From positions 149,854,001-149,918,000 of the forward strand of contig NC_042998.1 of the NCBI RefSeq assembly GCF_006345805.1: a stretch of DNA of 64,000 nt. The letters run 5' to 3'. Position numbers and translations under genes: made by a program. Under the pieces are notes generated by a model that saw nothing but the letters and a program-made list of their open reading frames with translations, searched no databases and was not told the DNA's origin. The DNA comes from Octopus sinensis. Taxonomy: Eukaryota. Of this stretch, positions 2,731-47,406 are shown one piece after another. How positions within the stretch are numbered: position 1 is the stretch's first letter; the number at the start of each line of letters is the position of its first letter.

Positions 2731-4009
2731 CGAGGGGCGTTCAATAAGTAATGCCCCTGACCCACTTCCCATAGCAGTAGAGTAACGAAACTTGGCACAG
2801 TTATTAGTCTTTTTCTACATAGAAACCACCCAGAGTTACGCATTTCTCCCATCGTTTGATGCAGCTCTGGAGACCGTTTTTGTAGAAGAACCCAGCTTGG
2901 TCCTCCAACCTCAACGTGACTTCAGAAATCAAGGCTGCATCATCTGGGAAACGCTTTCCTTTCAAAAACAACTTCATGGCTGGGAAGAGGTGAAAATCAG
3001 AGGGTGCAAGGTCAGGAAAGTAGGGGGGATGGGGAGGAGTTCATAGCCATACGCCTGTGCCTCTGATCTGGCGACCATCGAGTTGTGGACCGGAGCGTTG
3101 TCCTGCAGGAGGAGGATGCCTTTGCTGATCTTGCCCCGCCTCTTGATTTTGATAGCTTCTCTTAATTTCCTCAAAGGTGAAGCATAATAGGCTCCTGCAA
3201 TTGTGGTACCCTTTGCCAGGAAATCTGTCATCACTACTCCGTCCTGGTCCCAGAAGGCTGTGAGCATGACCTTGCCAGCGGAGGGCTGCACCCTTGCCTT
3301 CTTTGGAGGGGGTGAGTCACGGTGCTTCCACTGCATTGACTGGGCTTTGGTCTCTGGATCATAGTGATGGACCCAGGTTTCATCCTGTGTAATCAGTCTT
3401 TTGAAAAATGTTGACTCATCTTCTTGGCACATCTCCAAATTCACCCTCGAGCACTCGAAACGTTCTTGCTTCTGGAAAGGCGTGAACAACCTGGGAATCC
3501 ATCTGGCAGACACCTTTTGCATATGCAAATGGTCATGAATGATAGTTTCCACAGACTCGGTACTAATCTTGACCTCATGGGCTATTTGGCGAATAATTAT
3601 GCGTCGATCTTCGAAAATGGCAGCCTCAATTTGACGGACAGATGCCTCATCAATGGCAACCAGATCTGGGAGCTGTTTCCACAGTTCCGACCATGATTGA
3701 ATTCACGATGCCAGCGTTTTACAAGATCATATAATGGGGCATCATCACCATAAGTTACTTTCATTTCATCAAAAGTCTCCCGTGGTGTGCGTCCTTTCAA
3801 ATACAAAAACCGGATCACTGCTCGACACTCAACAGGCTCCATTTCACACTTGACTCGGTTCAAACACCTGTAAATCAGAAACCACAGTTAATTCAGAGCT
3901 GTAATTTGCTACTTACAATATAGAAATATAAATAATTGCACATGCAAAATTTCAGCTAGATCAAACAACTGCAAGTGGGTCAGAGGCATTACTTATTGAA
4001 CGTCCCTCG
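2731..4009 (-). mobile_element. Full-length mariner DNA transposon (~1.28 kb)
   Basis: 37-bp terminal inverted repeats cgagg(g/g)(g/a)cgttcaataagtaatgcc(c/t)ctgacccactt with two mismatches; TA dinucleotide on both flanks (2729-2730, 4010-4011). Confidence 0.97.
2804..3842 (-). pseudogene. Mariner DD34D-type transposase, frameshifted
   Basis: N-terminal HTH MEPVECRAVIRFLYLKG; ARWIPRL (WVPHEL-like); ITQDETWVH; LLQDNAPVH; PPYFPDLAPSDFHLF in a shifted frame; ends GGFYVEKD-stop. Confidence 0.93.
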
Positions 4010-8129: not shown

Positions 8130-8340
8130 TTTTAATCTGTTACTTTAGTTACGTGACTGCGGCCGTGCTGGAGTATCATATTCAAAGGTTTTAATCGAAC
8201 AAACCGACCCCAGGACTTATTTTTTAAGCCTAATAGTTATTCTATCGGTCTCTTTTGCCGAATCGCTAAGTTACTGGGACGTAAACACACCAGCGCCGGT
8301 TGTCAAGTGGTAATAGTAGGACAAACACAGATACGAAGAC

Positions 8341-8345
<5 letters not shown>
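8130..8345 (-). mobile_element. 3' part of SINE family A
   Basis: gactgcggccgtgctggag...gaccccaggacttat...ttttgccgaatcgctaagttac. Confidence 0.75.
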
Positions 8346-8383
<38 letters not shown>

Positions 8384-8544
8384 ATTAATCAAAGGACATA
8401 CTAAATATGTCTACCTGCTGGAAATAACAGTCAAAACTCTTATTTAAATCGCCAAAATACAGCGATGATAACTACAGAAATCAACCTCCCAAAGAAAAAC
8501 AGACTAAGACAATCTCTCAGCATACATTCAAGTATTTGGACTCA

Positions 8545-8593
8545 CGTAGACTTGTTTCTAGACTGACAAAATAGCCTCATCTTCCTCAGCACG
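8545..8593 (-). ncRNA. Type I hammerhead ribozyme motif
   Basis: Minus strand cgtg-CTGAGGA-agatgaggctattttgtcagtcta-GAAA-caa-GTC-tacg. Confidence 0.65.
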
Positions 8594-8821
8594 CGTTACC
8601 ATGATAGACACTCCCAACCCGTCGTGTACAAGTCTGTGCTGCAACTGATTCGTTTTGCGCCGAAATCATGGCAACCATCAGTGTGAAAATAATTTCAATA
8701 CGGAGAAAAATAAGAGAAAATATAATGAATTATTTGCTCCGTATTGCAATTTCGGCACAAAACGAATCTGTTGCAGCGCAGACTTCAACACGACGGGTCG
8801 GAGGTTTCTATTATGGTAAAG

Positions 8822-8870
8822 CGTGCTGAGGAAGATGAGGCTATTATGCCAGCGCAGAAACCGGTTCACG
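8822..8870 (+). ncRNA. Type I hammerhead ribozyme motif with palindromic stem III
   Basis: cgtg-CTGAGGA-agatga ggc tattat gcc agcgca-GAA-accggt-t-cacg; perfect stem I cgtg/cacg, self-complementary ACCGGT stem III. Confidence 0.7.
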
Positions 8871-9169
8871 TTAGTCCAAATAGTTCAATATACGTTAGGA
8901 GATTGTCTTAGCCCGTTTGCCTTTGGACGGTTAATTTCTGTAGTTATTATCAGTGTATTTTGTCGATTTAAATAAGAGTTGTGAGTGTTAAGTCCTTTGA
9001 TTAATTTTAAGCCTTCAACTATTTAATGCTTTGGGACGAGGCTGCAATCGCCTATATTATTGATTTTGTCATTACCATTTTTAAATTATTACACTAGATA
9101 ATAACAGAGTCAATGATATCTTCGCAAGTGAATTATTTTTTTCTCGTGAATTATTTGCTCCATATTGAA

Positions 9170-9210
<41 letters not shown>

Positions 9211-9218
9211 TATATATA

Positions 9219-9277
<59 letters not shown>

Positions 9278-9309
9278 GCATATATACATACATGTACATG
9301 CCTACATAC

Positions 9310-28545: not shown

Positions 28546-28552
28546 TAATAAT

Positions 28553-28583
<31 letters not shown>

Positions 28584-28767
28584 CATTAATATAAATAGTG
28601 ATAATAACAACATCAATAATATAGGTAGTAAAGATAAAAATGTAGTAGGTGAGGATAGTGAGAATATATTAATAACTAGTAACCCCTGTTTACATAACAA
28701 TATAACTACTATTAGAGGAAATAACACTAATACTAATAACAACTCGAGTAACGGAAATGAAAACGAA

Positions 28768-29196
28768 TTGTCCATAAATAATACTAGTACCAGGAATTAT
28801 CTCCCCAGTTGTAATTGTAGGATTAGATCGAAATGTCCGGTATCTGGCCGCTGCTTGGTCCAAAATGTAATTTATAAATGTACAGTAGTAACTTCAAATA
28901 ACAACTATCTTTATTTCGGTTGTTCGGTAGATCTAAAAAAACGTTTAAACAATCATTTTTCTTCCTTTAGGCTCAAACACAAAGCAGGTTGCATAACATT
29001 GTCTAGTAAAATTTGGGAACTGAAAACGAATAATATAGAATTTAACCTGAAATGGGATAGAGTAAGAAAAGCACGGCCATATAAAAATAGTGTAGATGGT
29101 TCTGAACTTTGTTCTATGGAAACATATCAAATTTTAAAACATAAGAATAATACAAATCTGTTATATAACCGTTCTGAACTAGGAGCATACGTTTAA
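28768..29196 (+). pseudogene. GIY-YIG endonuclease domain of the PLE
   Basis: CNCRIRSKCPVSGRC..NVIYKC..YFG..KKRLNNHFSSF..TLSSKIWELK..LKW..ELCSME. Confidence 0.85.
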
Positions 29197-30721: not shown

Positions 30722-31327
30722 CACGCATATAATTAAATCTTTATATGTATATATGCATGTGTGGGTAAGTGAGTGTGCTTGTAGAATGCTTGTACGAACT
30801 AGAAAACAAAGCACTCAAGGAGGGATCCGACGTTTCCAATAATAAAGATAACGCGTTACAAATGGTTGTCTAAGAGCTCATCAAGCGAATGCAGCTTAGA
30901 ATTCCAACCACTTATGCTGAAGTACATCCTTGTCTATCTTAAAACAAATCGTTTATCCTCGATACTCTCCCCACTCCTTTTTAATATGATGTCTGATTTG
31001 TCCATTTGTAAACTTTTGAAAATCCAATGTCTTGAAAGAATTCTTTCTGTTTTTAACTCTAATTTCTACCAGTTAAACTAAATACTCATTCGCTAGATAA
31101 GACCCTGCTGAGCGAAAGTCATGATTTTCTGTAAAGAAGTCATATTAATCTCAGTACAATTAAGGTAAACATGCACGCTTTGCAACGCACACACACACAT
31201 ATTCTATATATACTTGCACTTATTTAGATATTCATATACGTATATATGGAATAATGTATCATGTATATGTATATGTATATGTATGTGTGTGTGCGCGCGC
31301 GTGTGTGTATGTATCTGTATATATATC

Positions 31328-31361
<34 letters not shown>

Positions 31362-31364
31362 ATA

Positions 31365-31743
31365 TTAATAAATAAATTAAACATATGCATTTATATAAAC
31401 ATATATGTACGTACCTACCTCTACATGTACATATACACGCATATATGAGTACAGGACACCAAAAGGACGTCGAACACAATGAGAAACGAAAACATAGACA
31501 CAAACCAAAGGAACTGGACATTTTTTAAAAACATCAAAAAAATAGAGTACAGGACAATTAACACAAAAAAACCCTTCTTCAGTCGCTATGGTTTCATCTA
31601 CTCTACGTTTCGAAGGATAAAAGCGAGACGTATCTTCGACAAGAAACTTTCTTCCTGCGAAAAGCAATCAATTAAAATATATATATATCTGTATATATAT
31701 ATATGTATATATATATCTGTAAATATATATATATATAATATAT

Positions 31744-31827
<84 letters not shown>

Positions 31828-32137
31828 TAAATAAATTAAACATATGCATTTATATAAACATATGTACGTACCTACCTCTACATGTACATATACACGCATA
31901 TATGAGTACAGGACACCAAAAGGACGTCGAACACAATGAGAAACGAAAACATAGACACAAACCAAAGGAACTGGACATTTTTTAAAAACATCAAAAAAAT
32001 AGAGTACAGGACAATTAACACAAAAAAACCCTTCTTCAGTCGCTATGGTTTCATCTACTCTACGTTTCGAAGGATAAAAGCGAGACGTATCTTCGACAAG
32101 AAACTTCCTTCCTGCGAAAAGCAATCAATTAAAATAT
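31365..32137 (-). repeat. Tandem dimer (457-bp period) of the P1 non-coding PLE-like unit separated by (TA)n
   Basis: Near-identical units; the spurious ORFs at 31479 and 31936 are offset by 457 bp. Confidence 0.9.
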
Positions 32138-32208
32138 ATATATATCTGTATATATATATATGTATATATATATATATGTATATATATATCTGTAAATATA
32201 TATCTGTA

Positions 32209-32273
<65 letters not shown>

Positions 32274-32276
<3 letters not shown>

Positions 32277-32560
32277 ATATATATATATAATATATATATA
32301 TAAACCTGAGAATGTGTGTCTGTCTGTCTGTGTGTTTCCCTAAAACTTGAGAACTACACAACCAATTTCATTCAAATTTTACACATGCCTTACTTAGTGT
32401 CCATGGAGTGTCGTGGGCAAAAACATGTTCAACTTCTTGCTTAGGGCGAGCCCATAGCAATATCATTTCTTCTCCAATATTTCAGTATTACGTGTAAAAA
32501 GTGAAACAAAAACATCTCTCTATTTTATGTCAGATACTTTCAATTTAACACTAAAAATTA
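32274..32560 (+). mobile_element. Helitron-like 5' end, copy 1
   Basis: TC(TA)n-aaacctgagaatgtgtgtctgtctgtctgt...aaccaatttcattcaaattttacac; repeated at 35322. Confidence 0.6.
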
Positions 32561-37140: not shown

Positions 37141-37194
37141 TAGATTTCGCAGACAGGACCTGAAACAAATCAATATATATGTATGTATATATGT

Positions 37195-38720
37195 GTTTTG
37201 GTATTGGCAACATGAATGACAATGGTCAGAGACTACTTGAATTTTGCACATACCATAACCTGTGCATCACTAACACATTCTTTGCCAGCAAGACATCCCA
37301 CAAGACATCTTGGAAACATCCAAGATCTTACCACTGGCATCAGCTGGATCTCATCATTACACGAAGATCCTTTCTGAATTCTGTTCGACTGACCCGTAGT
37401 TACCACAGCGCGGATTGTGACACAGAGCATTCACTAATAAGAGGCAAGGGGAGGATTCTGCCTAAAAAGTCCAACACTCCAAGAAAATGGGTCGACTACG
37501 CATTAACACTTCCAGAACCTAGGATCCTACACTGCGACAAAATTTTACTGTTTCTATCAAGGTTGCCCTCAGTAGCTGCCCAACCTTCTCTGCTGAAAGT
37601 AGGTAGAATTATATCAGGGAAGCTTTGTATACCATATCAATAGATACTTTCGGCATGAGAGAAAGGCAAAACCCAGATGGGTTCAGTGCTGGGCTCTCAG
37701 AGCTGGAAACAGTTATCGAAAAAAAGCGTGCAGCTCTGATGCTATACAAGAGTGATTCTTCTACAAGGTCACTCGAAGAACTCAGAAAGGCAAGAAATAA
37801 AACCCAACTGACGGCCAGACGCTGTGCAAATAGGTATTGGCAGGAAATCTGTCAGAGTATCCAGTCAGCTGCTGACAGTGGTGACACCCGTGGGATGTAT
37901 ACTGGTTTGAAGAAGGCCCTCGGTCCATCCGCAACCAAGTCGGCCCCTCTGAAATCAACTACTGGAGATCTCATCAAGGACCAAAGCAAGCAGATGGATA
38001 GATGGGTGGAGTACTACCAGGATCTCTACTCATGGGAGACCACGGTAACTGAGGCTGCAATCGAGGGTGTCAAGATCTTGCCAGTCATGTGCGAACTTCA
38101 CAGTCTGCCATCTATAGCAGAGCTCACCAAGGCTAGTGTCTCCCTAGCAAGTAACAAGGCTCCGGGAAAAGGCGGCATCCCCTTAGAGATCATCAAAACC
38201 GGCAAAAACACCATCCTGCTTCGGCACCTTCATGAGCTTCTGTGTCAGTGCTGGGAAGAGGGTACAGTCCCTCAGGATATGCGGGATGCTAACACCATTA
38301 CGCTTTACAAAAACAAAGGTGACCGTGGTGATTGTAACAATTACCGTGGAATATCTCTTCTAAGCACTGTTGGAAAGGCCTTTGCTCGCATTATCCTGTC
38401 CAGGCTGCAACTGCTTGCTTCTCGAATTTATCCAGAATCGCTGTGTGGCTTTAGAAGAAGCAGACCAACTATTGACATGATATTCTCCATACGCCAACTG
38501 CAAGAGAAGTCCAGAGAGCAGAAAATGCCATTATATATGGCCTTCATTGATCTGACAAAGGCCTTTGACTTTGTAAGTAGAAAAGGCCTATTCATCCTGC
38601 TCCAGAAATCAGATGTCCACCAAAGCTGCTGAGGATCATCAAATCTTTCCCTGATGATATGCAAGACACCATACAGCACAATGGTTCAACATCAGCCGCC
38701 TTCCAAATAAAAAATGGACT
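37195..38720 (+). mobile_element. RTE/BovB-like LINE internal fragment (AP endonuclease C-terminus and RT N-terminus)
   Basis: NDNGQRLLEFC..TNTFF..SWKHPRSYHWHQLD..ADCDTEH; KAPG..LYKNKGDRGDCNNYRGISLLS..GFR..QEKSREQ..FIDLTKAFD. Confidence 0.93.
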
Positions 38721-39112: not shown

Positions 39113-42060
39113 CATCTTTGTAGGTGGAGATTTTAATGGGCATGTTGGGCGGGAATCGGGTATCTTCACTGGGGTACATGGTGGCCATGGTATTGGCACC
39201 AGAAATGATGAGGGAACTAGACTGTTGGAATTCTGTGATGCATGTAACCTTTCAATCTGCAACACTAACTTCAAGAAGCCAGTCTGCCACCTTATAACTT
39301 ATCAGTCAGGAGACTCCGCTAGCCAAATAGACTTCATCCTCACCAGACAGCGGGATGCAGGGTTGCTCTTGAATATAAAGACCCTCCCGGGTGAAGAATG
39401 TATCCCTCAGCATAGACTAATCATCAGTGACTTTAAGCTTGAGGCCAGAAGGACTCCAAGAAATAAACCAATCCAGAAAAGAAGGATTTGGAGGCTAAAG
39501 AACCCTTCACATGGTCAGAAATTTAGGGACATACTCATCAAGAAATTTGATGAGAGGGAGGAGGAGCTTCAGCCGTCAGACATAGAAGGTAGCTGGGAAT
39601 TCCTACGGGACAGCTTGCTGAGTGCCACAGACCGAGTCTGTGGATGGTGCAAAGTCAACTTCCAGACCAAGAATTACGTGGTGGTGGAATAGTGCAGTAG
39701 ATAAAGCCATTTGTGAAAAGAGACGGGCCTGGAAAGCCTGGAAGGATGGGGGCAGCAGGGAACTGTACCAGATAGCCAAAAGGGAGGCTGGGCGGCAGGT
39801 ATACATAGCCAAAGATGTAGCAGAAAAGAAGAAGTTTGCCAATGTCCAGCGACGCGAGGATCAAAGAGCTGAAGTATTTCGGATTGCCAGACAGTGTGTC
39901 AGAGAAAATAGTGATGTTATAGGAGAGAAATGTGTCCGCATGGATGATGGGGCACTTGCTTTTACTGCTAGTGAAAAGAAAGAGGCTTGGAGAAGCCATT
40001 ATGAAAGACTGCTGAATGAGGAGAATGAATGGGAGGAGGAGAGCCTGCCAATGTTGACCCAGTAGAGGGACCAGCTACCCGAATAGACAGCTCCCTTGTA
40101 GATAAGGCAATTAAGGATATGAAACCAGGTAAAGCCCCCGGCCTATCAGGAATCACTGCTGAGATGCTTAAAACAGCTGGCTATGTGGGCTATGACATAG
40201 TCACCCGCATTGTAAACCAGGTAGTTCACAATGGAGTCATACCCAATGACTGGTGCAGCAGCACCATAGTCAACTGCTACAAGGGTAAGGGTGATGCTCT
40301 AGATAGAAATAACTACAGAGGTATCAACTGTTGGACCAGGTGATGAAGGTCTCAGAGAAGGTCATAACCCATCTCATTAGGGAGAGAATTTGTTTAGATG
40401 AAATGCAGTTCGGTTTTGTACCAGGTAGAAGCACCACTGATGCTATATTCCTGGTCCGACAACTGCAGGAGAAGTACCTAGCTAAAGATAAACCCCTCTA
40501 CATAGCTTTTGTAGACTTGGAGAAAGCCTTTGACAGGGTTCCCCGTTCCCTTATCTGGTGGTCGATGCGGAAACTGGAGATTGACGAATGGCTAATAAGG
40601 GCTGTACAGGCTCTATACAGAGAGGCTGTCAGCAAGGTTAGGATTGGCAACGAATATAGTGAAGAATTCCGGGTAGAAGTAGGTGTGCACCAGGGCTCAG
40701 CCCTCAGTCCCCTTTTATTCATCATAGTCCTTCAGGCAATAACAGAGGAATTCAAAACGGGATGCCCCTGGGAGCTCCTCTATGCCGATGACCTAGCTCT
40801 CATAGCAGAATCACTACCGGAACTAGAAAAGAAATTTCGGGTGTGGAAGCAAGGGTTAGAATCAAAGGGCCTTAGAATAAATGTAGCAAAGACCAAAGTA
40901 TTAGTAAGCAGCAAGAGGTACTCAGCACACACCCCCTCGGGTAGGTGGCCCTTCTCAATCTGTAAGAAAGGTACAGGTAGAAACTCCATAAGATGCACCC
41001 AATGTAAGCTATGGACACATAAGAGGTGCAGCAACATTAAAGGGAAATTAACAGATAAGATAGCTTTCATGTGCGGCAGATGCACAGGGACAATAGACAC
41101 AACAGACACTCAGAAAACAGATTCCATCACACTCCAGGGGGAGAAACTAGAAGTAGTTGATAGTTTCCACTACCTGGGTGACCAAGTTAGTAGCGGAGGT
41201 GGATGCACAGAGAGTATCACCACTAGAATACGAATAGCCTGGGCAAATTTCAGAAAGCTCCTACCCCTACTGGCAACAAAAGGTCTCTCCCTCAGAGCGA
41301 AAGGTAGACTGTATGATGCATGTGTGCGAACTGCCATGCTTCACGGTAATGAAACATGGGCTGTGACTGCAGAGGACATGCGTAGACTTGAAAGAAATGA
41401 AGCTAGCATGATCCGCTGGATGTGTAGTGTCAGTGTGCACGCAAGACAGAGTGTAAGCATCCTGAGAGAATGCTGGATATAAGAAGCAACAGATGTGGTG
41501 TGCAAGAGCGACGCTTGCGATGGTATGGTCATGTGCTGCGGATGGATGAAGAGAGATGTGTGAAGAAGTGCCACTCCCAAACAGTTGAAGGTATCAGGGG
41601 GAGAGGTAGACCCAGGAAGACATGGGATGAGGTAGTCAAGCATGACCTCAGAGCATTGGGCCTCACTGAGGCAATGGCGAAGGACCGAGATCTATGGAGA
41701 TATGCTGTGACTGCAAAGACCCGGGCTGCTTTCTGCAGCAATTCCACATACCCCCTACCCATTCAAAGTACCCCGGATCCCCAAAGTACCCCGGATCCCG
41801 TTGCCCCCGTGCCGCTGGCACGTTAAAAGCTTGAACCGATCGTGACCGATGCCGGACCCCTCGGCCCCTGTGCAGGTGGCACGTAAAAAGCACCCACTCC
41901 ACTCACGGAGTGGTTGGCGTTAGGAAGGGCATCCAGCCGTAGAAACTCTGCCAGATCAGACTGGAGCCTGGAGCGGCCCCTGGCTTCCCAGACCCCGGTC
42001 GAACCGTCCAACCCGTGCTAGCGCGGAAAACGGACGTTAAACGATGATGATGATGATGAT
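39113..42060 (+). mobile_element. 5'-truncated RTE-clade LINE (APE, RT, 3' UTR, (GAT)n tail), four frameshifts
   Basis: GGDFNGHVG; SQIDFIL; QHRL; KAPG; NYRGI; QFGF; FVDLEKAFD; GVHQGSALSPLLF; LLYADDLAL; RLRWYGHV; RGRPRKTW; tail gatgatgat. Confidence 0.96.
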
Positions 42061-44547: not shown

Positions 44548-47406
44548 GAGAGTTGAGACCAAATGGCGTATAAGAGCGAAGAGAGAAGATTAATTCCTGT
44601 TCACGGCGCAAACGGGAATCCGGATGGCCTCTGTGTAAGGACAAACCGAACACAGATAGGTGTTGCAGGAGTGACCGGTGGAGCGGAAATGGCGTGAGAG
44701 CGGTGTGTCGTTCGCAAGGTGGATGTCACGAAGGTGTTCCGCGAACCGGTCAGCCAAGCGGCGTCCCGTTTGTCCGATGTACAGGAATTGCAGAGAGAGC
44801 AAGAGGCAATAGATAATATTGCTGGAGGTGCAGGTGAAGGAGTGGATGATGGATAGGGTCGATGGTGGGTGCTAGTGAGGCGGGTGGTGTTGGAGAGGTA
44901 AGGGCAAATGCGGCAACGTGGGCGGGAGCAGGGGAACGAGCCGGGTTGGGAGGTAGGGTCAGGGAAGGAGCTATGGACCAAAAGGTCTCGAAGTTGTGGG
45001 CTCTTTTGAAAGAGGGGAGGGGTCGGTTAGGGAAGAGTGTGAAGTGGATGGTCGGACTGGAGATGACGGAAAGCTCGAAGAATGGTGCGTTGGAGACGTA
45101 GATCGTGGGGTGGTAAGTGAGGGGAAAAGGTAGGCGGAGACTACAGGGCGGGTTCGGGGAGAGAGCAGATACACGGTCCACGGACCGTGCTCTGGCAAGG
45201 GCGGTGTGGATAGTGGTGAGGGGGTATCCACGTAGGGTGAAGTGGTGAGCCATACGTTGAGACTGAGTCTCAAAGTCATGGTCGTCACTACAGAGCCTAC
45301 GTAGACGGAGGAATTGGGAATAGGGGATGGAAAGCTTGGTGTGTTCTGGGTGGGAGGAAGAGAAGTTGAGGTATGAGTGTGAGTCTGTGTGTTTGTAGTG
45401 AATGGAGGTGGTAAGAGTGGAGTGAAGAATGCTAACCGAAATGTCGAGGAAGGAGACAGAGGTGTTGGAGATAGTGGAAGTGAAGTGGAGGGCTGGATGG
45501 AAAGATTGGACGAAAGAGAGGAAGGAATCTAGATGTTCGCGGGAGAGTGAGGTGGCACCGATAATGTCGTCAATGTAACGACCATATAGTTCAGGAGTGG
45601 GACCAGTGAAATTAGAGAATATTTGGGCCTCAACATAGCCAACGAACAGGTTCGCATAGTTGGGGCCCATTCGCGTTCCCATGGCCACTCCCGAGACCTG
45701 ATGGTAGAACTCGCCCGCGAACGAGAAGCAGTTCAGAGTAAGGACAAGTTCGGCCAGACGAATGAGTGTGGAGGTGTCAGGTACAGGGTTAGAGCGGAGG
45801 TCAAGAAAGTGTCGAAGGGCCTGCAGTCCTTCGTGGTGAGGGATAACAGTATAGAGGCTTTGGATGTCCATAGTAAAAAGGATTTTGGAGGAGCCGGGAG
45901 GAAAGGAGAAAGAGTTGAAAAGCCGGAGAGCATGGTTGGTATCGTGGATGTGGGAGGGAAGAGATGCCACTAGGGGGGCAAGGACACGGTCGAGGTATTT
46001 AGAGATGAGCTCCGTGGGGCAGTTACAGGCGGAGACGATGGGGCGGCCAGGGTTGTTGGGTTTGTGGATTTTGGGGAGGAAGTAAATGGTGGGGGTACGT
46101 GGGGTTCGCACAATTAGGTTGGATGCGGTGCGGGGGAGACGGGAGGACGAGATGAGGTCGTGGACAGTAGAGGATACCGTCTGTTGGTAGCTACGTGTGG
46201 GGTTAGAGGGCAGAGGGGAATAGAAGGAGCTGTCATTGAGTTGGCGGAAAGCCTCGGCCCTATAGAGGTCCGCGCGCCACACCACTACAGCTCCACCCTT
46301 GTCAGCCGGTTTGATGATAATGTCAGCGCGCCGTTGGAGGGAACGAAGAGCCAAGAGCTCAGCCGGGGAGATGTTGAGCGGCGTTGGCGCCTGGAGAAGT
46401 TGAACCGCTCCAATGCACGCTGACAAGCGCCCGCGAAAAGATCCACTGCTAGGATCTGGCCAGGGGCAGGCGTCCACGGGGAGGAGTCGGCGGCCAGGCC
46501 AGTGAAGCAGTCCTCTTCGTTGGGTGTGGGTGGCGAGTCGTGGTAATGCGCACCCAACCGGACACAGCTGTGGACATCAACTCGCGTCTGGAATTCCTTA
46601 CAGGATGGAGTGAGGGGGATGAAACGCAGACCCCTACCAAGGAGCGTTCAGCCGCAGAGAGGGGAAGATCGGGGGAATGGTAACAACAGACGGAAGTGGA
46701 GAAGGGGTGGGTGGAATAGAAGTAGGAGGGTGTGGTAGTCTCGTGGAGGTCTGAGGGGGAGGGATTGGGGAGGTGTGTGGGGGGTGGTTGGGCGGGGCAG
46801 TAGGGTTAGGTGTAGGTGGATGGAGCCTATCGGGAGGGGAGAAGGGGTTGTAGGGAGGGGCAGTGGGGTTAGGTGTGGGTGGATGGAGCCTATCGGGAGG
46901 GGAGAAGGGTGGTGGAGGAGTTGGGGTAGTGGCGTCGGTAGGGTGGAATGGAAGAGTGATTGGAGTTTACGAAGTTTGGTATCAGAAAGAATTGATGGAA
47001 GAGTTGATTCAAATGGATAATGAAGCGTAGCGTGTTTGGAGCATAGAGAGGCGGCAGAGAGGAGAAGAAGGTGGAGAAAGCAGGAGAAGAAGGCGGTTGA
47101 TGGCATGTAGTTTGGAGAGATCGGAGCGAATGGTGGCCTGCATAAGGCGGTAAGATGTGTGCGGAGTATGGGTAAGATGGAAGAATCCGAGTGGAGAGCA
47201 GGGTGGAAGTGGCGGCGGAAACCTTTAGGGATGAGTCGGTGATGTAGGCAGCGGCTTAGGAAAGAGACATGGCTAGAGAAGCGGGTTTTTTTAAAAAGAA
47301 GTAGAGAGAGATTAACGGACGGCTGAAGGCAATATACAGGAAGTGAACGGAGATGATCCTTCAAACGGTGATGGAGGGTGAGGAGGTAGGACCTAGGATC
47401 CGGCAT
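44548..47406 (-). pseudogene. PLE polyprotein: N-terminal domain, reverse transcriptase, GIY-YIG endonuclease (frameshifted)
   Basis: FLSRCLHHRLIPKGF; IKPADKGGAVVV; LPKIHKPNNPGRPIVS; MDIQSLYT; GVAMGTRMGP; RYIDD; SSSHP; PCSRPRCRIC; YIGQTGRRLADRFAEH; REQELIF..PFGLN. Confidence 0.93.

What the first reader, a model, noticed from the sequence alone, without database searches (positions are those of the whole stretch)
8381..9170. ~630-bp fold-back carrying a hammerhead ribozyme on each strand
Seen: two imperfect copies of one non-coding unit point away from each other (8381-8667 minus, ~8727-9170 plus). Each retains CUGAGGA, GAAA and stem I (cgtg/cacg in one, cgtg/tacg with a G-U pair in the other). 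The plus unit has a short terminal direct repeat and both outer ends join (TA)n. Established: PLEs form inverted pseudo-LTR structures. Inference: read-through transcription in either direction yields a long dsRNA hairpin (a potential ADAR or Dicer substrate, relevant in heavily editing coleoids) that competes with ribozyme folding, so it could act as a conformational switch.
Basis: partly seen in the sequence, partly recalled or inferred. Interest (0 to 1): 0.7.

Follow-up and report, generated by a model that had tools for sequence, protein, structure and literature searches.

The report
Decayed back-to-back hammerhead retroelement copy
The mirror-image repeat is one old, decayed copy of a common non-coding repeat that carries a hammerhead-ribozyme motif and often sits back-to-back in this genome, so it is likely a by-product of how Penelope-type retrotransposon enzymes insert it, and the hairpin is predicted to shut the ribozymes off rather than act as a switch.

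Summary
Two arms (8381-8726 minus, 8726-9171 plus) abut directly, each carries a type I hammerhead core, and both outer ends join (TA)n. They are copies of a dispersed 467-nt ORF-less unit. The layout is family-wide: 21 of 47 loci chosen by the ribozyme motif alone are head-to-head and 1 is tail-to-tail. Copies end at two fixed points about 150 nt apart (A and B); 28 of 30 pairs with both ends at such points have one of each. This matches the inverted pseudo-LTR with a one-sided 'tail' of Penelope-like elements, and opposite-strand hammerhead pairs are already in print (PMC4209133). The switch idea is not supported. The arms differ by 16.5%, as much as unrelated copies. Both ribozymes have decayed. 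In read-through RNA the hammerhead fold costs about 64 kcal/mol, and its antisense copy is always made first. No autonomous partner was found. The scan found this family before on other DNA (e1-10332717). The remaining interest is family-level: a long tail holding a hairpin, and strict A/B pairing.

The parts
8381..8726 (-). Left arm: unit positions about 431-467 then 1-312; its 3' end lies at fixed end point B and runs into (TA)n
   Evidence: 9.2% from the family consensus
8726..9171 (+). Right arm: unit positions 443-465, a 27-nt deletion, 26-265, a 26-nt deletion, then 292-467; its 3' end lies at fixed end point A and runs into (TA)n
   Evidence: 10.0% from the family consensus
8821..8871 (+). 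Type I hammerhead motif. Core intact, palindromic stem III kept, but the cleavage triplet is GUU (family GUC) and the second stem II pair is broken (A.G). Predicted cut after 8866
8543..8595 (-). Type I hammerhead motif. Core and GUC triplet intact, but the stem III palindrome is lost and stem II has G.U and A.C changes. Predicted cut between 8549 and 8548
8722..8733 (.). Inverted junction: 5-bp palindrome with a 2-nt loop; the inner ends of the arms lie 12 nt apart on the unit
   Evidence: sequence
9010..9171 (+). 'Tail': unit positions 313-467, present on the right arm only, between end points B and A
9054..9119 (+). Long hairpin inside the tail (23-bp stem in the consensus)
9147..9171 (+). 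Second copy of the 25-nt direct repeat (first copy 8726-8750), which is the permuted unit junction
8342..8380 (.). (CA)n(TA)n left flank; target microsatellite at the tail end of a very abundant repeat
9172..9290 (.). (TA)n / (CA)n right flank; no target-site duplication can be told apart

Best explanation
This is one old, decayed insertion of a 467-nt non-coding hammerhead-bearing repeat that was likely copied in trans by a Penelope-like retrotransposon enzyme, and its fold-back is likely a by-product of that integration, not a selected switch. Shown: the multi-copy family, no ORF, permuted and more-than-unit copies, (TA)n flanks, head-to-head bias, two fixed 3' ends used one per arm, a covarying hammerhead stem II, and decay of this copy. 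Inferred: the enzyme nicks a (TA)n tract and starts reverse transcription at two internal sites (A and B) of a multimeric or circular RNA. The two 5'-truncated cDNAs are then joined at their inner ends, or in some cases one folds back, which gives two arms pointing outward. The ribozyme likely served the active master copies as a dimer through the palindromic stem III. Predicted: if this locus is read through, it forms a 630-nt hairpin that locks both ribozymes off and could be edited by ADAR like any other inverted repeat.
For: Family: 1253 and 1324 first-look candidates, with best scored copies at 74-88% identity. Longest stop-free frame in the doubled consensus is 93 aa, and the best similarity to two PLE proteins is E 0.047. 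Architecture over 89 distinct loci: 45 head-to-head, 1 tail-to-tail, 43 single orientation. In the 47 motif-selected loci (window included): 21, 1 and 25. End classes in head-to-head pairs: 28 AB, 2 AA, 0 BB, and 15 with an end elsewhere; motif-selected: 13 AB of 13 classifiable, 8 with an end elsewhere. A relative 64-75% identical shows the same A/B head-to-head layout (L140). Hammerhead stem II pair: C-G 20, G-C 6, U-A 1, unpaired 5 of 32 (0 of 500 shuffles reach the covariation score). The same pair in homology-selected copies: G-C 30, C-G 8 of 59. Decay: arm-to-arm divergence 16.5%, against 16.8% and 15.4% to other copies, with only 3 shared variants in 261 sites. The hammerhead region diverges as fast as the whole unit (10.9% vs 10.7%). 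Stem I forms in the consensus monomer (P about 0.98) but not in either whole arm alone (0.05 and 0.0). Literature: head-to-head inverted pLTRs with junction palindromes and a one-sided tail (PMC3846280 passages; PMC8557442 passages); two internal RT start sites bounding the tail, and nicking of both strands at AT-rich DNA (PMC11167929); opposite-strand min-HHR pairs 100-700 bp apart (PMC4209133).
Against: No autonomous element sharing sequence with the unit was found. The one abundant PLE family checked has no similarity to it (19 loci), and PLE ORF pieces lay beside only 3 of the 111 loci then held. The tail (about 150 nt) is much longer than the published 30-40 bp. Inner ends are not enriched at the ribozyme cut site (2 of 135), so nothing shows that the template was ribozyme-cut. 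No array of two or more full, uninterrupted units was seen among the 89 loci. Across 22 head-to-head loci the arms share more variants than random pairs (2.1% vs 1.0%, p=0.006); this fits co-insertion but also some homogenisation. The 11 core positions diverge less than the unit as a whole (5.8% vs 10.7%).
Confidence: 0.82

Rival explanations
1. The locus is an exapted RNA switch: the hairpin and the hammerhead fold compete, and editing or transcript start site toggles self-cleavage.
For: Both catalytic cores are intact; 27 of 57 family segments have all 11 core bases, so two intact cores are not rare. A plus-strand RNA starting at 8600 and ending at 8880 would form stem I (P about 0.83), so the start site could matter. 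Octopus CNS is heavily hyper-edited (PMC5625713 table). Near-identical pieces of the locus occur in DNA runs of three organism labels.
Against: A 64 kcal/mol gap in full read-through RNA. No homogenisation of the arms, and no significant G.U versus A.C bias (8 vs 16 on the plus strand, p=0.15). Damaged cleavage triplet or stem III. The geometry is shared by about half the family.
Confidence: 0.03
2. The unit is only the pseudo-LTR of a coding PLE whose ORF-bearing copies were not retrieved, so the insertion is a 5'-truncated autonomous element, not a separate non-autonomous family.
For: Most PLE copies are truncated, and only a few min-HHRs map in full PLEs (PMC4209133). Earlier scan notes report this for other families in this genome.
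Against: Copies run from position 467 straight into position 1, with arms up to about 950 nt long, and no ORF lies between. No PLE ORF is joined to the unit without an intervening microsatellite in the loci held.
Confidence: 0.08
3. Two independent insertions into the same (TA)n tract, or a later DNA-level inverted duplication, produced the fold-back.
For: The arms are as divergent as unrelated copies and share only 3 variants. They appear to come from different stem II variants on the 3' side.
Against: No (TA)n lies between the arms. Head-to-head outnumbers tail-to-tail 45 to 1, and A/B pairing is 28 of 30. Independent insertion would not give this.
Confidence: 0.07

Closest known systems
EN+ Penelope-like element insertions (Adineta vaga Penelope, PMC3846280; Neptune/Naiad overview, PMC8557442; Anolis Poseidon PAc, PMC11167929)
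   Same: Head-to-head inverted arms, a palindrome at the junction, a tail on one end only, two fixed 3' ends, 5' truncation, (TA)n target, and a hammerhead in the repeat.
   Different: No ORF. The tail is about 150 nt with a 23-bp hairpin, against a published 30-40 bp. No autonomous partner identified.
Metazoan non-LTR retrozymes (PMC7229834; bioRxiv 10.64898/2026.07.22.740005)
   Same: Non-coding, low-GC, permuted head-to-tail unit with one type I hammerhead that has a short palindromic stem III; proposed to derive from PLEs.
   Different: The unit is 467 nt (about 300 nt is typical, and 220-400 nt in the passages read). Copies are mostly 0.5-1.5 units and half are inverted. Circular RNA was not tested. 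'Inverted' occurs 0 times in PMC7229834 and once in the preprint.
Minimal or atypical PLE hammerheads (PMC4209133)
   Same: Extra nucleotide between A9 and G10.1, a G10.1-C11.1 pair, a palindromic stem III/loop 3, and pairs on opposite strands 100-700 bp apart.
   Different: There is also an extra A before GAAA and a 3x3 internal loop in stem II. The same extra-A core occurs in other families of this genome (1178 pattern hits vs 2 in the control).

Membership tests
Penelope-like element (autonomous, EN+) | ORF with telomerase-like RT and GIY-YIG endonuclease | tested here: not met
   Longest stop-free frame 93 aa; no significant tblastn match to PLE proteins
PLE-type insertion (pLTR structure) | Direct and head-to-head inverted partial repeats with 5' truncation | tested here: met
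   45 head-to-head vs 1 tail-to-tail of 89 loci; inner ends scattered
PLE-type insertion (pLTR structure) | Tail at one end only, bounded by two fixed 3' ends | tested here: met
   28 AB, 2 AA, 0 BB; 15 pairs have an end elsewhere; the tail is about 150 nt, longer than published
PLE-type insertion (pLTR structure) | AT-rich or microsatellite target | tested here: met
   Both window ends, and most printed flanks at A or B ends, run into (TA)n or related microsatellites; seen by eye, not counted
Non-autonomous PLE derivative | Sequence shared with the pLTR of an autonomous PLE | tested here: inconclusive
   One abundant 784-aa PLE family checked, no blastn hit at E<=1; other PLE families not surveyed
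Non-LTR retrozyme | Non-coding tandem unit with a type I hammerhead | tested here: met
   467-to-1 junctions in many copies; one hammerhead per unit
Non-LTR retrozyme | At least two consecutive full units with complete hammerheads (the 'active' criterion of the 2026 preprint) | tested here: inconclusive
   Not met at this locus and not seen in 89 loci; the genome was not surveyed fully
Non-LTR retrozyme | Expressed as a circular RNA | not testable with these tools
   Only assembled contigs were available
Type I hammerhead ribozyme | Core C3-A9, G12-A15.1, U16.1 with stems I-III | tested here: met
   Both arms; family covariation in stem II; Rfam models did not hit
Type I hammerhead ribozyme | Self-cleavage | not testable with these tools
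   Predicted weak or absent in both arms

The most novel reading that the evidence does not exclude
The family records twin priming by a Penelope enzyme: a dimeric RT-endonuclease nicks both strands of (TA)n and starts one cDNA at each side of a 150-nt hairpin-containing tail on a multimeric or circular hammerhead RNA. That would explain the long-unexplained inverted pseudo-LTRs, with the tail hairpin as the protein-binding signal. In 7 of 27 A/B pairs each arm holds sequence the other lacks, which simple fold-back copying cannot give unless the centre was deleted later.
Probability: 0.35. Interest if true: 0.55.

Novelty: new member of a known kind. Interest (0 to 1): 0.25.

Why it matters
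The locus itself is ordinary: a decayed insertion in a layout already described for Penelope-like elements, including hammerheads on opposite strands. The family is a useful natural record. Its strict one-A-one-B rule and long structured tail give a direct test of how Penelope enzymes make inverted insertions, which is still open, and an in vitro system exists (PMC11167929).

Tried and rejected
Rfam: no hammerhead model hit; the MIR matches reflect only the long hairpin and are below gathering scores. Expression: no RNA holder listed. Contigs of 4 guessed-RNA runs laid at 85%: the listed pieces carried many differences or ran on into other flanks, so they look like other family copies. No listed piece spanned the stretch, the bin 8705-8731 had no cover, and 137 pieces were not shown. 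This says nothing for or against expression, and editing cannot be called from contigs. ADAR footprint: no A>G excess in either window arm or in the tail hairpin. A slight family-wide A>G over T>C excess on the sense strand (3.1% vs 2.4%, p=8e-4 pooled; p=0.015 by site) is confounded by subfamily sites and was not pursued. Autonomous partner: the PLE beside L049 and L055 (784-aa ORF with a CX4CxxC linker, 11651 candidates) shares no DNA with the unit; no PLE ORF was found within 1.5 kb of 30 loci of other hammerhead families. Ribozyme-defined 5' ends: 2 of 135. The constrained folds and the stem I probabilities were indexed one base off; they were discarded and redone. Literature searches for the A/B twin-priming idea (penelope, twin priming, head-to-head, tail) and for octopus PLE hammerheads listed no paper describing this family; the library lacks most subscription journals, and supplements were not opened. 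Counts include three pairs of near-identical segmental duplicates (L008/L009, L011/L012, L046/L047); L047 was dropped from the 27-pair junction table. The 60 homology-selected loci are biased to long copies, so the 47 motif-selected loci are the fairer sample.

Full report
Observation. The inverted repeat is real: arms 8420-8666 and 8749-8995, 247 nt, 83% complementary. The stretch 8381-9010 folds at -333 kcal/mol, z = -24.5 against 20 shuffles. A descriptor scan of the whole window finds exactly two hammerhead motifs, plus 8821-8871 and minus 8595-8543. Rfam gives no hammerhead match. A contig of run X15 crosses the junction without differences, and runs X16 and X17 match parts of the arms exactly.

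The unit. Searching the window's own genome (2.72 Gb) with each arm gave 1253 and 1324 candidates, 40 scored each time. Aligning 27 copies with the two arms gave a 467-nt unit whose end joins its start in many copies. It has no coding capacity. On this unit the left arm covers about 431-467 then 1-312. The right arm covers 443-467 then 1-467, with two deletions of 27 and 26 nt.

Family architecture. After removing overlaps, 89 loci were classified: 45 head-to-head, 1 tail-to-tail, 43 single orientation. Among the 47 picked only by exact ribozyme patterns (window included) the counts are 21, 1 and 25. The 3' ends fall at two points, A (430-467) and B (298-335). Of 45 head-to-head pairs, 28 have one A and one B, 2 have two A, none has two B, and 15 have an end elsewhere. 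In the motif-selected set all 13 classifiable pairs are AB. Another locus of the family has hammerhead pattern hits on both strands (L110/L111). A relative 64-75% identical keeps the same layout (L140). Other hammerhead families do the same: among the first 100 of 1178 pattern hits, neighbours within 1.5 kb were head-to-head 8 times, tandem 11 times and tail-to-tail once.

Ribozyme. The family motif has a 6-bp stem I, an extra A after A9, a stem II of 2+3 pairs around an internal loop, an extra A before GAAA, and a 2-bp stem III with a palindromic loop. The second stem II pair swaps C-G and G-C, so the fold was selected in active masters; stems I and III were partly fixed by the search pattern. 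Copies then decay: the ribozyme region diverges 10.9%, the unit 10.7%, and the 11 core bases 5.8%. The right arm keeps the palindrome (self-duplex -11.5 kcal/mol) but has GUU at the cut site, which is a weaker triplet (recalled, from no call), and a broken stem II pair. The left arm keeps GUC but has lost the palindrome (-1.4 kcal/mol). Stem I forms in the whole consensus monomer (P about 0.98) but hardly in either whole arm alone (0.05 and 0.0); as isolated 71-nt motifs both still fold.

Switch test. In full read-through RNA of either strand, forcing the hammerhead costs about 64 kcal/mol and stem I has probability 0.0, also when the RNA stops just past the ribozyme. Because the arms point outward, the antisense copy is always made first. 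The arms are 16.5% apart, each 9-10% from consensus, no closer than to other copies (16.8% and 15.4%), and G.U versus A.C mismatches are 8 to 16 on the plus strand, p=0.15. Nothing indicates that pairing is maintained.

Mechanism. The fixed outer ends, scattered inner ends, one-sided tail and (TA)n target match PLE integration. In vitro a Poseidon protein nicks both strands of AT-rich DNA, starts reverse transcription at two internal sites that bound the tail, is predicted to be a dimer, and does not need ribozyme cleavage (PMC11167929, main text parts 1-2 of 4 read). Head-to-head pLTRs with junction palindromes were ascribed to self-priming (PMC3846280, passages). My data allow both routes. 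Inner ends lie within 20 nt in 6 of 27 AB pairs, this locus among them (p=0.027), as fold-back predicts. In 7 of 27 (L010, L046, L061, L062, L067, L086, L092; read by hand) neither arm is contained in the other, as two independent primings predict, though later deletion at the palindrome centre could mimic this. The mobilising protein is unidentified.

Comparison. It works like a PLE pseudo-LTR insertion and resembles animal non-LTR retrozymes (PMC7229834, passages; bioRxiv 10.64898/2026.07.22.740005, part 1 of 5 and passages). It is not an autonomous PLE. Hammerhead pairs 100-700 bp apart on opposite strands are reported for Schistosoma, and such motifs were inactive as monomers and weak as dimers (PMC4209133, parts 1-2 of 4 read). 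The (TA)n bias and one-sided tail are in PMC8557442 (passages). Editing of repeat-derived hairpins is generic (PMC5625713, passages). Supplements were not read and may list related motifs. An earlier agent described the same 467-nt family and two-site rule on other DNA (e1-10332717); I saw that note after my own counts.

Verdict. A real feature, a new member of a known kind, neutral at this locus. Interest 0.25. The novel family-level reading (twin priming around a long hairpin tail) has probability 0.35 and interest 0.55 if true.

Noticed in passing
window 8160-8340: 3' part of an extremely abundant SINE-like repeat (summed contig depth about 1e7 vs 36 in the unique flank); its (CA)n(TA)n tail is the target into which the element inserted.
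   Followed up: no
window 44750-46576 (-): Penelope-type reverse transcriptase frame of 608 aa (RVT_1, E 6e-8); no hammerhead was found near it by the descriptor scan.
   Followed up: partly
window 28552-29196 (+): GIY-YIG endonuclease frame preceded by (AAT)n/(AAC)n Asn-rich sequence, PLE-like (Pfam E 1.5e-4, just under the cut-off).
   Followed up: partly
L113-L131: Young, abundant PLE family with intact 784-aa frames and a CX4CxxC linker (Neptune or Nematis type), starting after (TA)n; L124 has a 666-bp 99% inverted arm; no hammerhead was found by my descriptor next to the ORF ends.
   Followed up: partly
L132-L161: At least two further hammerhead families share the extra-A core; one forms tandem arrays of about 560 bp and head-to-head pairs; 1178 exact pattern hits genome-wide.
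   Followed up: partly
L140:1307-2414: Relative of the 467-nt unit at 64-75% identity with a longer, better paired stem II and the same A/B ends, interrupted by a SINE-like repeat.
   Followed up: yes
family-wide, 150 segments: Slight excess of A>G over T>C on the ribozyme-sense strand (3.1% vs 2.4%); this could be editing of template RNA or a subfamily artefact.
   Followed up: partly
window 31308-32305: 457-bp tandem duplication (2.2 copies, 95%) with (TA)n blocks.
   Followed up: no
window 2974-3702 (-); 37164-38632 (+); 40313-41482 (+): Mariner-like transposase remnant and RTE-like LINE reverse transcriptase remnants (labels recalled from motifs). No host exon was recognised in the window, so it is unknown whether the locus lies in an intron.
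   Followed up: no
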